From NCBI GenBank assembly GCA_041665345.1, contig JBAYJA010000001.1, positions 201,206-265,205 of the forward strand: 64,000 nt of DNA, given 5' to 3'. Of this stretch, positions 1,183 through 16,736 are shown in pieces. The position numbers were made by a program, and so were the translations under genes. The stretch is from Patescibacteria group bacterium. GTDB lineage: Bacteria > Patescibacteriota > Patescibacteriia > PEXW01. A model generated the notes under the pieces. The model did no database searches. It was given only the letters and a program-made list of their open reading frames with translations, and was not told the origin of the DNA. Positions within the stretch are counted from its first letter, which is position 1; the number at the start of each line of letters is the position of its first letter.

Positions 1183-1350
1183 AGATACAGCGAAAGCCGC
1201 ATGGCTAGTATACCATCGTAGTACAAATGCGGAGGCTACCCCGACGATCCCGCTACGGGATGTCGGGGCTCCGACCGAAGCGTCGGAGCGGCTTTCAGCT
1301 TTCTCAAACATTCTTGGTCGCTGCTCAACGGTTTTACCGCTGAGCTGCGT

Positions 1351-1390
1351 TGGGTGCGGGAGCCCCGCGGCCGCGGGGCGACCTCCGGAT
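1351..1390 (-). pseudogene. tRNA-fMet 3'-half fragment (positions about 38-49 and 65-76) with the T-arm replaced by the palindrome CCCCGCGGCCGCGGGG
   Basis: On the minus strand: tccggaggtcg + ccccgcggccgcgggg + ctcccgcaccca. These are identical to the corresponding parts of the intact tRNA at 1680-1754. Confidence 0.55.
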
Positions 1391-1635
1391 CACCGAGGGT
1401 GAATAATCTTTCGAAAAATATCCCCGCCTTTTTGACGCTTCAGTTGCCGTTCTCTCTGGATTGCCAAAGCCCGGGATGAAAACGTTTCAGTATAAATAAC
1501 TTTCCAAGGACGACGTCGGGCTGTCGATTTTACCATCCCAAGGTTATGACGGGAGAGTCGTTTAGATATAGACTCTGTTTGTCCAATGTAGTACCCCCCG
1601 TCTTTCAAACTTTGGAGGACGTATACGGTAAACAT
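1390..1635 (-). CDS. GIY-YIG nuclease family protein (81 aa, COG2827/UPF0213-like)
   Basis: MFTVYVLQSLKDGGYYIGQTESISKRLSRHN...WKVIYTETFSSRALAIQRERQLKRQK shows the GIY..YIG motifs plus the downstream R and E/K-rich helix typical of small GIY-YIG proteins. Confidence 0.7.
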   Translation of the reverse strand: MFTVYVLQSLKDGGYYIGQTESISKRLSRHNLGMVKSTARRRPWKVIYTETFSSRALAIQRERQLKRQKGGDIFRKIIHPR

Positions 1636-1679
1636 AGATTATCTGGTCACCCATTTGTGGTTTAGCCACATCTGGGTGT

Positions 1680-1754
1680 TGGGTGCGGGAGGGGGATTTG
1701 CACCCCCGACCTCCGGATTATGAGCCCGGCGAGCTGCTACTGCTCCATCCCGCG
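1680..1754 (-). tRNA. tRNA-Met (CAT), initiator-like (tRNA-fMet)
   Basis: The reverse complement is cgcgggatggagcagtagcagctcgccgggctCATaatccggaggtcgggggtgcaaatccccctcccgcaccca. It closely resembles the E. coli tRNA-fMet backbone, with a C1·A72 mismatch and a GC-rich anticodon stem. Confidence 0.7.
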
Positions 1755-1808
1755 TAGAGCGTTTCCCTGATGTTTTCAGGAACGCTTGTATGCATATTTG
1801 TTGGGTCG

Positions 1809-1855
1809 TATGAGCCCGGTCCCGCGGCCGCGGGACTACTGCTCCATCCCGCGTA
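1809..1855 (-). pseudogene. tRNA-fMet 5'-half fragment (positions 1 to about 37) with the D-arm 3' strand replaced by the palindrome TCCCGCGGCCGCGGGA
   Basis: On the minus strand: tacgcgggatggagcagtag + tcccgcggccgcggga + ccgggctcata. The first 20 nt and the anticodon-loop part are identical to the intact tRNA at 1680-1754. Confidence 0.55.
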
Positions 1856-1994
1856 GGAGGGGGAGTCCCCTCAGCAATCGTAAGCAAGCGCAAATGCGCG
1901 TGTCTGTCTTTCACCATACGTAGGGCAAGCCAGATTGTCAAGCATTGACAGTCTTCTCTATGCACAGTAACGTACCAGCACTTGGGAGGTATGC

Positions 1995-16192: not shown

Positions 16193-16569
16193 ACGGAAAT
16201 ATATTTGCACTGTACCGATTTTTTTTGCATTCGTCAACGCAGGGGTGAAGGAAAAAACGAACCGTTCGACCCCCTTGCGGATAGCTGTAGATGTGCTACA
16301 ATTCCGCACATTCGCTAGGTTTTCTAAGGGTTTTTCCATTCGGCAGGCTTTGGTCGCTTCCTGTTGCTTCATACCTCGTTCACGTACGGGCGGGAAGCGA
16401 ACGGCTGTAACATCCCCGGTACTCAGTAGGGACTTTCTTCAGGGCGCGTAGTCCCGTCCCGATGCCAGAGCATCGTGGACGTGGATCCTCGATTGCCTGC
16501 CGCAGGCAATCGGGACTCAGGCTCTCTATCCTTCAGCTGGATCGTCGGGATTGGTTAGTACATTCTTCA

Positions 16570-16646
16570 GGGCGCGTAGCTCAGCTGGTTAGAGCGTACG
16601 GTTCACATCCGTAAGGTCAGAGGTTCAAATCCTCTCGCGCCCACCA
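16570..16646 (+). tRNA. tRNA-Val (anticodon CAC)
   Basis: gggcgcgtagctcagctggttagagcgtacggttCACatccgtaaggtcagaggttcaaatcctctcgcgcccacca is a canonical cloverleaf. Confidence 0.85.
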
Positions 16647-16736
16647 CTCGACTCATCCCGCTGTGCGGGATTCGCTCGTGGTCTGCGACCGCTTGGTTCA
16701 TAGAAACACGTTTCGTTCCATCACTCTTCGTCTGCT

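What the first reader, a model, noticed from the sequence alone, without database searches (positions are those of the whole stretch)
1351..1855. Initiator-type tRNA-Met and a GIY-YIG endonuclease gene nested between duplicated tRNA ends and two identical GC palindromes
Read on the minus strand, the order is:
1. a 5' tRNA fragment (nt 1 to about 37, 1855-1809) with its D-arm half replaced by TCCCGCGGCCGCGGGA
2. a hairpin spacer
3. an intact initiator-like tRNA-Met (1754-1680)
4. an 81-aa GIY-YIG ORF (1635-1390)
5. a 3' tRNA fragment (nt about 38-49 plus 65-76) with its T-arm replaced by CCCCGCGGCCGCGGGG (1390-1351)

The two fragments together reconstitute the ends of the same tRNA, split at the canonical 37/38 anticodon-loop position. 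The roughly 440-bp interior is bounded by the identical NotI-containing palindromes (1363-1378 and 1820-1835).

This looks like a GIY-YIG homing or mobile cassette that carries its own tRNA copy and has inserted into, or gene-converted, an ancestral tRNA-fMet gene. A split tRNA with a large insertion is the alternative reading. Either would be unusual in bacteria. GIY-YIG endonucleases are classic group I intron and homing passengers, and cyanobacterial tRNA-fMet is a known intron host.
Basis: partly seen in the sequence, partly recalled or inferred. Interest (0 to 1): 0.7.

Follow-up and report, generated by a model that had tools for sequence, protein, structure and literature searches.

The report
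tRNA-invading GIY-YIG nuclease cassette
A 418-bp selfish cassette, made of a tiny nuclease gene plus a spare initiator tRNA, has split this bacterium's own initiator-tRNA gene, and it belongs to a widespread family of tRNA-gene invaders that I could not find described in the literature.

Summary
On the minus strand the order is: 5' tRNA fragment, spacer, intact initiator tRNA-Met, 81-aa GIY-YIG ORF, 3' tRNA fragment. The fragments abut exactly at canonical nt 37|38, and each carries a 16-nt GC palindrome.

Nine related genomes or contigs carry the identical tRNA. Seven have an uninterrupted gene. One has a related ORF (56% identical) inserted at the same 37|38 bond in a different layout. One has a decayed ORF remnant. 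In the window, the native promoter lies upstream of the 5' fragment and the orthologous native trailer follows the 3' fragment. The 418-bp interior (1808-1391) is therefore an insertion, and it is compositionally foreign (GC3 41% against 62-67%).

In 80 homologous loci from Patescibacteria, Ignavibacteria, Bacteroidota, Chloroflexota and others:
- 62 have a same-strand tRNA within 100 nt.
- Partial tRNA copies flank the ORF.
- TCC...GGA hairpins replace arms of those copies (131 observed, 4.2 expected).

No group I intron is present, and the joined halves are not a tRNA.

Best reading: a free-standing homing-endonuclease-like element (SLX1/UPF0213-type fold) that restores its tRNA target. Cleavage and the role of the hairpin are untested. 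I found no prior description.

The parts
1913..1941 (-). Native sigma-70-like promoter of the ancestral tRNA gene (TTGACA-17-TATGGT), upstream of the 5' fragment
   Evidence: It is the only promoter-like site on the minus strand in 800-2300. A TTGACA/TATTCT-type promoter lies at the same relative position before the uninterrupted gene in L090, L088, L094, L095, L097 and L098.
1809..1856 (-). psiA, the old 5' half of the ancestral initiator tRNA gene: leader CTA plus nt 1-37, with D-arm bases CAGCTCG replaced
   Evidence: Exact repeats D4 and D19. Alignment to the intact tRNA. It keeps the native promoter context. It is homologous to the upstream arm in L092, which ends at the same base.
1820..1835 (.). 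Hairpin/palindrome H_D, TCCCGCGGCCGCGGGA, a member of the TCC...GGA hairpin class
   Evidence: The class is enriched 131 against 4.2 expected across the family loci.
1391..1808 (-). The 418-bp inserted cassette, made of a tRNA-3'-end-like 9-mer, a spacer, an intact tRNA, a second spacer and the ORF
   Evidence: It is absent from seven related loci that carry the identical tRNA. It is bounded by adjacent tRNA positions 37|38. Excluding the tRNA, its GC is 45% against 53% for the window.
1800..1808 (-). CGACCCAAC at the left end of the insert, resembling the tRNA 3' end plus 2 nt (CGCACCCAAC)
   Evidence: Read from the sequence. Its origin is unexplained.
1755..1799 (-). 45-nt spacer with an imperfect hairpin, ending in the same CTA that precedes the tRNA in native loci
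1680..1754 (-). Intact initiator-type tRNA-Met(CAT) carried inside the cassette. It is the only intact initiator-type copy in the window.
   Evidence: ARAGORN and Rfam at 54.9 bits. It is 100% identical to the gene in nine related genomes or contigs, including the odd T loop TGCAAAT.
1636..1679 (-). 44-nt tRNA-to-ORF spacer. It is not related to the native trailer.
1390..1635 (-). 81-aa GIY-YIG nuclease ORF of SLX1/UPF0213 type. Its stop codon TGA is completed by the first base of psiC.
   Evidence: Pfam at 1.5e-15. Conserved Y5, Y16, G18, R26 and E62. AF2 pLDDT 87.6. Foldseek finds UPF0213 BH0048 and Slx1. PDB profile hits 1zg2, 1ywl and 6seh. GC3 41.5%.
1349..1390 (-). psiC, the old 3' half of the ancestral gene: nt 38-76 plus AC, with the T hairpin replaced
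   Evidence: Exact repeats D12 and D7. The sequence downstream is orthologous to the native trailer of L090 and L088.
1363..1378 (.). Hairpin/palindrome H_T, CCCCGCGGCCGCGGGG, standing in for the T arm

Best explanation
This is a selfish mobile cassette of the free-standing homing-endonuclease kind.

What is shown:
- A 418-bp unit (spacer, intact initiator tRNA, 81-aa GIY-YIG nuclease gene) sits exactly between canonical nt 37 and 38 of the chromosomal initiator-tRNA gene.
- The two old halves remain in their native promoter and trailer context. Each is disabled by a 16-nt GC hairpin that replaces part of the D arm or the whole T arm.
- Translation therefore depends on the tRNA copy carried inside the cassette.
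- The whole array is probably transcribed from the original tRNA promoter.

What is inferred:
- The nuclease breaks an unoccupied copy of the tRNA gene at or near 37|38.
- Recombinational repair from an occupied copy uses the tRNA-derived arms and flanks as homology and copies the cassette in.
- Because a working tRNA is regenerated, an essential single-copy gene can be colonised.
- Because the regenerated tRNA is identical to the empty allele, the target is not destroyed. This fits the tandem ORF/pseudo-tRNA arrays seen in other members.

The TCC...GGA hairpins are a conserved cis component of the family. Their role is not established. Candidates are a structure-specific nuclease substrate or anchor, disabling of the target in the arms, or stabilisation of the transcript.
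For: 1. Empty, occupied and decayed alleles of one locus.
- Seven related genomes or contigs (L088, L090, L093, L095, L096, L097, L098) have an uninterrupted gene of identical sequence, with no ORF and no fragments.
- L092 has a 56%-identical ORF whose ATG uses nt 37. It is preceded by a hairpin-bearing nt 1-37 arm and followed by the intact tRNA.
- L094 keeps only the C-terminal third of such an ORF.

2. Native context of the outer halves. The promoter lies upstream of psiA, and the trailer downstream of psiC is orthologous to the native trailer.

3. Foreign composition. ORF GC3 is 41.5% against 62-67% in parA, parB and topA.

4. Family-level evidence.
- 506 relatives were found among the first 600 pattern matches in species-representative genomes.
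- 62 of 80 loci have a same-strand tRNA within 100 nt.
- 77 of 91 ORFs end inside, or within 12 nt of, tRNA-derived sequence.
- Partial tRNA duplicates flank the ORF.
- ORF clusters track tRNA identity.
- Tandem arrays occur in L015, L023, L027 and L035.
- There are 3,150 protein clusters at E<=1e-10.

5. Hairpins.
- 131 TCC...GGA hairpins were found against 4.2 +/- 1.8 in shuffles, and 55 of 80 loci have one within 150 nt of an ORF end.
- None occur in the empty relatives L088 and L090.

6. The nuclease fold is closest to UPF0213 and Slx1.
Against: - No cleavage has been shown. An 81-aa catalytic core has no obvious DNA-binding domain.
- The intact inner tRNA is 100% identical to the empty alleles, so the usual rule that insertion destroys the target does not hold. 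Self-cleavage would have to be tolerated, or recognition must involve something else.
- The insert begins with a tRNA-3'-end-like 9-mer (CGACCCAAC) that a simple one-step insertion does not explain.
- In other family members the upstream and downstream pseudo-tRNA pieces overlap rather than abut. A two-step history therefore cannot be excluded for the window: an old upstream element that lost its ORF, plus a downstream element.
- ORF clusters that track tRNA identity could partly reflect vertical inheritance within phyla.
- The hairpins were collected as perfect hairpins, so the 100% pairing is by construction.
Confidence: 0.65

Rival explanations
1. Two independent events rather than one insertion. 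An older upstream element, laid out like L092 as psi5'-ORF-tRNA, lost its ORF and left psiA plus the 54-nt spacer. A separate downstream element (tRNA-ORF-psi3') gave the present ORF and psiC. Both broke at 37|38 because that is the cleavage site of this nuclease clade.
For: - L092 has an upstream arm that ends at nt 37 and shares the right-hand junction ...CGCGGGA|CCGGGC with psiA.
- L094 shows that such ORFs decay by deletion.
- ORF-less pseudo-tRNA units upstream of intact tRNAs are common: L072, L080, L078, L027, L096 and the window's tRNA-Val.
- The CGACCCAAC 9-mer suggests a more complex history.
Against: - The 54 nt between psiA and the intact tRNA show no similarity to any ORF end (inspection).
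- Exact abutment of the fragments with no overlap is what one insertion predicts. Chance coincidence is about 1 in 40, unless the shared cleavage site forces it.
- The intact tRNA has non-native sequence on both sides.
Confidence: 0.2
2. Campbell-type integration. A small non-replicating circle (tRNA plus ORF) integrates by ordinary homologous recombination within the tRNA gene, without site-specific cleavage. Redundant copies then decay.
For: - The general layout tRNA copy - ORF - tRNA copy, with duplications ranging from partial to full length (L023, L008), and the tandem arrays.
- Direct repeats that could pop out circles.
Against: - A crossover between two hairpins on a circle predicts that the copy in native 5' context keeps its own D arm. 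In the window psiA, which sits in native 5' context, carries the D-arm hairpin. This is the opposite of the prediction (reasoning).
- The recurrence of the exact 37|38 junction in two differently ordered cassettes points to a defined break, not to random crossovers.
- A conserved nuclease ORF would be unnecessary.
Confidence: 0.08
3. Not mobile. A housekeeping UPF0213/SLX1-like repair nuclease happens to sit in tRNA operons. The fragments are ordinary decay products of local tRNA duplications, and the palindromes are REP-like or terminator hairpins.
For: - The function of UPF0213 proteins is unknown.
- Within phyla, ORF clusters follow tRNA type.
- Hairpins could stabilise transcripts.
Against: - Presence, absence and decay polymorphism occurs at one locus among close relatives.
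- The composition is foreign.
- Multiple tRNA species are occupied, and there are several copies per genome and arrays.
- The hairpins are not followed by T runs, and the palindrome occurs only twice in 64 kb.
- The essential tRNA gene is physically split.
Confidence: 0.05
4. Split or intron-containing tRNA. The outer halves are transcribed and joined, by a group I intron or by bulge-helix-bulge (BHB) splicing at 37/38, to give a functional initiator tRNA.
For: - The position 37/38 is the canonical archaeal and eukaryotic intron site.
- The two GC palindromes could pair and bring the halves together. The minimum-free-energy fold of the joined halves pairs them (-57.9 kcal/mol).
Against: - There is no group I intron or any other Rfam hit in 700-2300 at E<=1.
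- ARAGORN does not call the joined halves a tRNA, because the D and T arms are replaced.
- An intact copy lies inside the cassette.
- Relatives have uninterrupted genes.
- Reported bacterial tRNA-fMet group I introns sit at 33/34 (PMC13011429).
Confidence: 0.02

Closest known systems
Free-standing GIY-YIG homing endonucleases of T4-like phages, especially SegB in the T4 tRNA gene cluster (PMC2330249)
   Same: - A GIY-YIG nuclease gene that lies between genes rather than in an intron, next to tRNA genes.
- It spreads, or is inferred to spread, by cutting the ORF-less allele and being copied in with flanking markers.
   Different: - This ORF is an 81-aa catalytic core of SLX1/UPF0213 type with no DNA-binding domain. 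I-TevI is a weaker structural match.
- It is chromosomal, in bacteria of several phyla.
- It sits inside or abutting the tRNA gene, duplicates part or all of it to keep it functional, and is accompanied by conserved hairpins.
- Only 13 distant hits were found in 50,697 phage records.
Group I intron homing (I-TevI; tRNA group I introns of Cyanobacteria and Patescibacteria, PMC13011429)
   Same: - An endonuclease-linked insertion in the anticodon loop of a tRNA gene.
- An invasion, degeneration and loss pattern.
   Different: - There is no ribozyme.
- Function is rescued at the DNA level by a spare tRNA copy, not by RNA splicing.
- The insertion bond is 37|38, not 33/34 or 35/36.
Integrase-mediated genomic islands and prophages that target tRNA genes
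   Same: The element carries a replacement for the displaced tRNA part, so an intact tRNA plus a direct repeat of a tRNA fragment flank the element.
   Different: - There is no tyrosine or serine recombinase.
- The element is only about 0.3-0.45 kb.
- The displaced fragment is systematically altered by hairpins.
- Either the 5' or the 3' side can be the displaced one.
SLX1 and bacterial UPF0213 (BH0048, EF2693; YhbQ-like) GIY-YIG proteins
   Same: Closest in sequence profile and predicted fold. SLX1 cuts branched and stem-loop DNA, which fits hairpin-associated biology.
   Different: - There is no RING domain and no SLX4 partner.
- The searched literature, including the superfamily survey PMC1564403, does not link UPF0213-like proteins to tRNA genes or to mobility.
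Hairpin-associated bacterial elements (REP/RAYT, IS200/IS605 subterminal hairpins)
   Same: Short conserved hairpins are genetically linked to a nuclease gene. ORF-less hairpin copies exist.
   Different: - The nuclease class differs (GIY-YIG, not HUH).
- The hairpins are not dispersed genome-wide. They are confined to tRNA-derived sequence.
Archaeal split tRNA genes (Nanoarchaeum) and 37/38 tRNA introns
   Same: The break is at 37/38, and GC-rich complementary sequences are associated with the two halves.
   Different: The halves here lack D and T arms, are not recognisable as a tRNA when joined, and an intact gene is present.

Membership tests
GIY-YIG nuclease superfamily (PF01541) | Profile match above the curated threshold | tested here: met
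   57.7 bits against a cut-off of 22.6, E=1.5e-15.
GIY-YIG nuclease superfamily (PF01541) | Conserved GIY / YIG tyrosines, Gly, Arg and catalytic Glu | tested here: met
   Y5, Y16, G18, R26 and E62 are invariant in 23 homologues.
GIY-YIG nuclease superfamily (PF01541) | Three-stranded sheet plus helices fold | tested here: met
   AF2 pLDDT 87.6. Foldseek finds UPF0213 1zg2 and Slx1 at TM about 0.7, with I-TevI weaker.
GIY-YIG nuclease superfamily (PF01541) | Endonuclease activity | not testable with these tools
   Needs biochemistry.
SLX1 proper | C-terminal RING/PHD domain and an SLX4 partner | tested here: not met
   The protein is 81 aa and consists of the GIY-YIG core only.
Free-standing homing endonuclease gene | Presence/absence polymorphism of the ORF at the same site among related genomes | tested here: met
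   Seven empty alleles, two intact but differently organised occupied alleles, and one decayed allele.
Free-standing homing endonuclease gene | Degenerate copies, as expected from an invasion, decay and loss cycle | tested here: met
   L094 carries a 5'-truncated ORF remnant. ORF-less pseudo-tRNA relics also exist.
Free-standing homing endonuclease gene | Site-specific cleavage of the ORF-less allele, followed by copying of the ORF by repair | not testable with these tools
   Inferred only. The 37|38 junction recurs in two related elements.
Free-standing homing endonuclease gene | The occupied allele is protected because its target is altered | tested here: inconclusive
   The old halves are split and altered by hairpins, but the inner tRNA is identical to the empty alleles.
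Group I intron in a tRNA gene | Group I ribozyme core | tested here: not met
   No Rfam family other than tRNA reaches even half of its gathering score in 700-2300 at E<=1. The only other listed hits (Plastid-ycf2, Tymo_tRNA-like) overlap the tRNA genes themselves.
Group I intron in a tRNA gene | The flanking exons form a functional tRNA when joined | tested here: not met
   ARAGORN finds no tRNA in the joined halves.
Archaeal-type split or BHB-intron tRNA | The halves join to a cloverleaf with intact D and T arms | tested here: not met
   The D and T arms are replaced by palindromes.
Archaeal-type split or BHB-intron tRNA | A bulge-helix-bulge motif and a splicing endonuclease in the genome | not tested
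   Only a 64-kb window was available.
Integrase-mediated tRNA-targeting island | A tyrosine or serine recombinase gene in the element | tested here: not met
   The 418-bp insert holds only the 81-aa ORF and a tRNA.
Integrase-mediated tRNA-targeting island | A direct repeat of a tRNA part bounding the element | tested here: met
   nt 38-76 plus AC is repeated.
REP/MITE-type dispersed palindromes | Many copies scattered through the genome | tested here: not met
   There are two copies in 64 kb. One further strong TCC...GGA hairpin (stem of at least 6) lies 9 nt after tRNA-Val; weaker stem-5 matches elsewhere in the window occur at roughly chance density.

The most novel reading that the evidence does not exclude
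The nuclease and the 13-21-nt TCC...GGA hairpin form a two-component system.

- A minimal SLX1-like, structure-specific GIY-YIG enzyme recognises the hairpin as single-stranded DNA, as a cruciform, or as RNA flanked by tRNA-derived sequence.
- It uses the hairpin as a cis anchor or as a homology- or RNA-guided targeting module.
- Swapping the short tRNA-derived arms then retargets the element to any tRNA gene.
- The hairpins themselves are inserted at broken loops of tRNA gene copies in trans, which would explain the ORF-less relics.

This would be a new mechanism of target choice for homing elements.
Probability: 0.15. Interest if true: 0.9.

Novelty: new variant of a known kind. Interest (0 to 1): 0.78.

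Why it matters
If the reading holds, five things follow.

1. Essential single-copy tRNA genes, including the initiator tRNA, can be colonised by very small selfish elements. Homing normally needs an intron or intein to keep the host gene working. Here the element brings a spare tRNA, or a spare tRNA half.

2. The family is large: 3,150 protein clusters at 50% identity. It spans Patescibacteria, Ignavibacteria, Bacteroidota, Chloroflexota, Zixibacteria and Acidobacteriota, yet I could not find it described. That would give a concrete biological role to many small "GIY-YIG nuclease family protein" / UPF0213-like ORFs.

3. It explains a class of pseudo-tRNA fragments and false tRNA calls, for example a "tRNA-Thr" in L008 that is a tRNA-Gln copy whose anticodon arm has been replaced by a hairpin. 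It also explains artificial N-terminal extensions in protein databases.

4. An 81-aa nuclease that finds tRNA genes, together with a conserved hairpin, is an attractive minimal system for studying target recognition.

5. Cultured hosts exist, so experiments are possible: Melioribacter roseus P3M-2, Gracilimonas tropica DSM 19535, Cyclobacterium salsum and Mangrovivirga halotolerans.

Tried and rejected
- **Group I intron or other known RNA.** Rfam at E<=1 on 700-2300, and at E<=0.1 on seven family loci, gave only tRNA above or near its gathering score (the only other listed hits, Plastid-ycf2 and Tymo_tRNA-like, overlap the tRNA genes at well under half their gathering scores).
- **Phage vector.** tblastn against 50,697 phage records gave 13 distant hits (<=42% identity), none in relevant hosts.
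- **Exact look-ups.** Look-ups of the ORF and of ParA found nothing on record. ParB worked.
- **First alignment too diverse.** Alignment A1 was too diverse for the locus search and was replaced by A2.
- **Hairpin as intrinsic terminator.** Rejected, because no T runs follow it.
- **Hairpin as a fixed-spacing binding site for a dimer on duplex DNA.** Unlikely, because total length varies from 13 to 23 nt and the loops are often not palindromic.
- **Hairpin derived from the local tRNA.** In the window and in L092 the arms resemble the initiator tRNA's acceptor strands turned inside-out (TCCCGC|GGC|CGCGGGA; CCCCGCA|GG|CGCGGGG). This does not hold for elements associated with Ala, Asp, Lys or Val tRNAs, so I left it as an unexplained resemblance.
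- **Hairpin as an anti-deletion poison.** Works for the window, but not where 80 nt of uninterrupted repeat remains.
- **Campbell-type circle model.** It predicts the opposite distribution of hairpins (see the rival explanations).
- **The hairpin at 998-1012.** It turned out to be a native hairpin, conserved in the empty relative L090, not a relic. With a stem of only 5 bp the hairpin criterion is noisy.
- **Literature.** Nine searches, including the literal hairpin sequences, found no description. The GIY-YIG superfamily survey does not mention tRNA-gene linkage.
Full report
**1. What is in the window**

All features below are read on the minus strand.

- ARAGORN and Rfam find an intact tRNA-Met(CAT) at 1754-1680. 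It has a C1xA72 mismatch and A11:U24, which are initiator marks.
- An ORF at 1635-1390 (81 aa) matches Pfam GIY-YIG at E=1.5e-15.
- Exact repeats show that 1853-1809 copies tRNA nt 1-37, except that CAGCTCG of the D arm is replaced by TCCCGCGGCCGCGGGA (1835-1820).
- 1390-1349 copies nt 38-76 plus two trailer bases, except that the T hairpin is replaced by CCCCGCGGCCGCGGGG (1378-1363).
- The two fragments correspond to adjacent bases of the intact gene (1719|1718), so there is no gap and no overlap.
- CCGCGGCCGCGG occurs only at these two places in 64 kb.
- The stop codon of the ORF is completed by the first base of the 3' fragment.
- The 5' fragment is followed by CGACCCAAC, which resembles the tRNA 3' end.
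- Two other assemblies of the same organism (a Patescibacteria MAG) are identical across the locus. A third breaks inside the repeated tRNA.

**2. It is an insertion**

I found relatives in two ways: through ParB and by scanning metagenomes with the lineage-specific T arm. This gave nine further genomes or contigs whose initiator tRNA is 100% identical to the inner copy. The identity includes an unusual T loop, TGCAAAT.

The state of the same locus in these nine:

| State | Loci | Notes |
|---|---|---|
| Uninterrupted gene | L088, L090, L093, L095, L096, L097, L098 | Promoter, about 50-nt leader, tRNA, conserved trailer, then tRNA-Met2 and tRNA-Leu. No ORF and no fragments; no TCC...GGA hairpin in the two MAG loci scanned, L088 and L090, while L096 carries an ORF-less hairpin relic further downstream, at tRNA-Met2 (section 7). 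|
| Occupied, different layout | L092 | See section 3. |
| Decayed | L094 | See section 3. |

In the window, the only promoter-like site on this strand lies about 58 nt upstream of the 5' fragment. This matches the promoter position in the empty alleles. The sequence after the 3' fragment is orthologous to the native trailer of L090 and L088. The inner tRNA has unrelated sequence on both sides, apart from 3 nt upstream and 2 nt downstream. The outer fragments are therefore the halves of the ancestral gene, and 1808-1391 (418 bp) is inserted DNA. The ORF has GC3 of 41.5%, against 62-67% in parA, parB and topA.

**3. The same bond is used by a related element**

In L092 the layout is:

- native promoter and leader;
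- tRNA nt 1-12;
- a GC hairpin block, CCCCGCAGGCGCGGGGCGGTCGCGGGA;
- nt 27-37;
- then directly an ORF whose ATG begins with nt 37.

That ORF is 56% identical to the window's ORF. It reads into an intact tRNA and stops at the TAG of the D loop. The tRNA keeps its native trailer. The insertion point is again exactly 37|38, but the cassette order is ORF followed by a new 5' half, instead of a whole tRNA followed by the ORF.

In L094 only the C-terminal third of such an ORF survives, fused after tRNA nt 1-5.

One locus therefore shows empty, occupied and decayed states. That is the pattern expected from the invasion, degeneration and loss cycle of homing endonuclease genes (established knowledge of that cycle).

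**4. It is one member of a large family**

- The nearest database homologues are only 52-55% identical.
- The first two I inspected had the same anatomy:
  - Melioribacter roseus: tRNA-Asn, then the ORF, then a duplicate of tRNA nt 36-76 plus its terminator, with TCCGTTAGCTAACGGA in the T loop.
  - Candidate division Kazan: a 5' tRNA-Asn fragment with TCCGCCAGCTGGCGGA in the D loop, then the ORF, then the intact tRNA overlapping the ORF's stop codon.
- In the 80 loci kept:
  - 62 have a same-strand tRNA within 100 nt. Seven more have one within 270 nt, and most of the rest are cut by contig ends.
  - The tRNA lies either 25-75 nt upstream of the ATG (mostly Bacteroidota and Ignavibacteria) or overlaps the stop codon (mostly Patescibacteria).
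  - 77 of 91 ORFs end inside, or within 12 nt of, tRNA-derived sequence.
  - ORF clusters follow tRNA identity: Asn, initiator Met, Ala, Pro, Lys, Gln, Asp and others.
  - Tandem arrays of ORF plus pseudo-tRNA occur behind one tRNA (L015, L023, L027, L035).
  - Arrays of ORF-less pseudo-tRNA units occur in front of one (L072, L080, L074, L078, L027).
- A profile search of 1.84 billion representatives finds 3,150 clusters at E<=1e-10.

**5. The hairpin**

The partial tRNA copies carry hairpins of the form TCC(G/C)NN - loop of 0-5 - NN(C/G)GGA. Most are 16 nt, with a range of 13-23.

- They replace or interrupt the D loop, the anticodon arm, nt 38-47, the T loop or the trailer. They usually lie 3-22 nt from the junction with the ORF.
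- Across the 80 loci there are 131 such hairpins, against 4.2 +/- 1.8 in shuffled sequence. 55 loci have one within 150 nt of an ORF end.
- The empty relatives L088 and L090 have none.
- The four or five base pairs at the foot of the stem are conserved across phyla, while the inner pairs change on both sides. This set was selected as perfect hairpins, so the pairing itself is by construction.
- Variable length and non-palindromic loops argue for a folded single strand rather than a rigid dimer site on duplex DNA.
- No T run follows the hairpins, so they are not intrinsic terminators.
- Their function and origin are not explained.

The window's two palindromes are members of this class. The second begins with CCC instead of TCC.

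**6. The protein**

AlphaFold gives a confident GIY-YIG core (pLDDT 87.6). The best structural and profile matches are the uncharacterised UPF0213 proteins BH0048 and EF2693 and the structure-specific nuclease Slx1. I-TevI is more distant. There is no DNA-binding domain.

**7. Interpretation**

Shown:
- an insertion at 37|38 that carries a spare tRNA;
- family-wide linkage to tRNA genes;
- duplicated tRNA parts;
- conserved hairpins;
- gain, decay and loss polymorphism.

Inferred:
- the nuclease breaks unoccupied tRNA genes;
- the cassette is copied in by recombinational repair, using tRNA-derived arms and flanks as homology.

The inner tRNA is identical to the empty alleles, so the target is regenerated rather than destroyed. 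I take the tandem arrays as indirect signs of continued breakage and unequal repair.

A two-step history for the window cannot be excluded. In that history an old upstream element lost its ORF and a downstream element arrived separately, with both breaking at the same site. ORF-less relics of exactly this type exist:
- at the window's own tRNA-Val;
- at tRNA-Met2 of L096.

A split or intron-containing tRNA is rejected, for three reasons:
- no ribozyme;
- the joined halves are not a tRNA;
- relatives have uninterrupted genes.

**8. Comparison and novelty**

It works like a free-standing homing endonuclease gene; T4 SegB also lives among tRNA genes (PMC2330249). It also works like integrase-borne islands, which restore the tRNA they split. 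It differs from both in four ways:
- the enzyme is a minimal SLX1/UPF0213-type core;
- the size is 0.3-0.45 kb;
- either tRNA side can be the displaced one;
- hairpins are substituted into the displaced tRNA parts.

Nine literature searches found no description. These included the GIY-YIG superfamily survey (PMC1564403) and the recent study of tRNA introns in Patescibacteria (PMC13011429). The library lacks most subscription papers, so prior description cannot be excluded.

I rate it a new variant of a known kind, with interest 0.78.

Noticed in passing
window 16435-16515 and 16655-16671 (+ strand, around tRNA-Val 16570-16646): An ORF-less relic. A 17-nt duplicate of the tRNA-Val leader plus nt 1-10 (TTCTTCAGGGCGCGTAG) is followed by two abutting imperfect TCC...GGA hairpins and D-loop-like pieces. 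A further hairpin, ATCCCGCTGTGCGGGAT, lies 9 nt after the tRNA. The layout is the same as a relic at tRNA-Met2 in L096 (GCCGGGGTAG|TCC..GGA|TCC..GGA|CTCAG).
   Followed up: partly
window 1696-1702 (- strand), and the same tRNA in L088, L090 and L092-L098: The initiator tRNA of this lineage has the T loop TGCAAAT, with G where the near-universal U55 stands. It is conserved in ten genomes or contigs. Other initiator tRNAs in the data set have TTCGAGT or TTCAAAT.
   Followed up: partly
window 1183-1348 (- strand): The native trailer between psiC and tRNA-Met2 is about 75 nt longer than in relatives. The extra part holds nested hairpins, including ATCCCGTAGCGGGAT (1247-1261), followed by GTCGGGGTAGCC, which resembles the 5' end of tRNA-Met2. 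This may be another relic.
   Followed up: partly
L002/L073, L005, L006, L026, L036, L047, L051, L056, L059, L082, L083, L092: Where the ORF lies upstream of the tRNA, its stop codon lies inside the tRNA (often the TAG of the D stem/loop). RNase P processing would therefore remove the stop codon and leave a non-stop mRNA. This is a possible built-in limit on nuclease expression.
   Followed up: no
L008 525-601: ARAGORN and Rfam call a 'tRNA-Thr(TGT)' that is really a full-length copy of the neighbouring tRNA-Gln, with its anticodon arm replaced by the hairpin TCCCGTCGC-TGT-GCGACGGGA. Such copies can be mis-annotated as tRNA genes.
   Followed up: partly
P0009, P0021, P0024; P0145, P0147, P0149, P0175: Database proteins of this family often carry false N-terminal extensions. 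These are translations of the pseudo-tRNA plus hairpin (for example ...LRQLA... from CTCCGCCAGCTGGCGGAG). Others are fused tandem copies with two GIY-YIG stretches.
   Followed up: no
L032 79-702 and L052 1133-1743: One tRNA-Pro(GGG) is flanked on both sides by GIY-YIG ORFs of different sequence clusters, one upstream overlapping the tRNA and one downstream. The arrangement is conserved in an Ignavibacteria MAG and a Bacteroidota MAG.
   Followed up: no
L024 1772-1799; L015 1738-1770: In L024, a truncated hairpin (TCCGTTAGCTAA) is directly followed by a different complete one (TCCGTCAATTGACGGA). In L015, the last unit of the array ends two bases into the hairpin position (GGTTCGA|TC) and then runs into unrelated DNA. 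Both suggest the hairpin position is a recurrent breakpoint.
   Followed up: no
window 1809-1855 joined to 1349-1390: If the two old halves were joined, or brought together in one transcript, the two palindromes would pair with each other (minimum free energy -57.9 kcal/mol), enclosing the anticodon stem under the acceptor stem. No evidence suggests this structure forms.
   Followed up: no
L087 (Logan SRR6484324 contig) starts at window 1728: An independent short-read assembly breaks inside the intact tRNA, at the repeated 5' part. Many family loci also lie at contig ends. These elements fragment assemblies and are probably under-counted.
   Followed up: no
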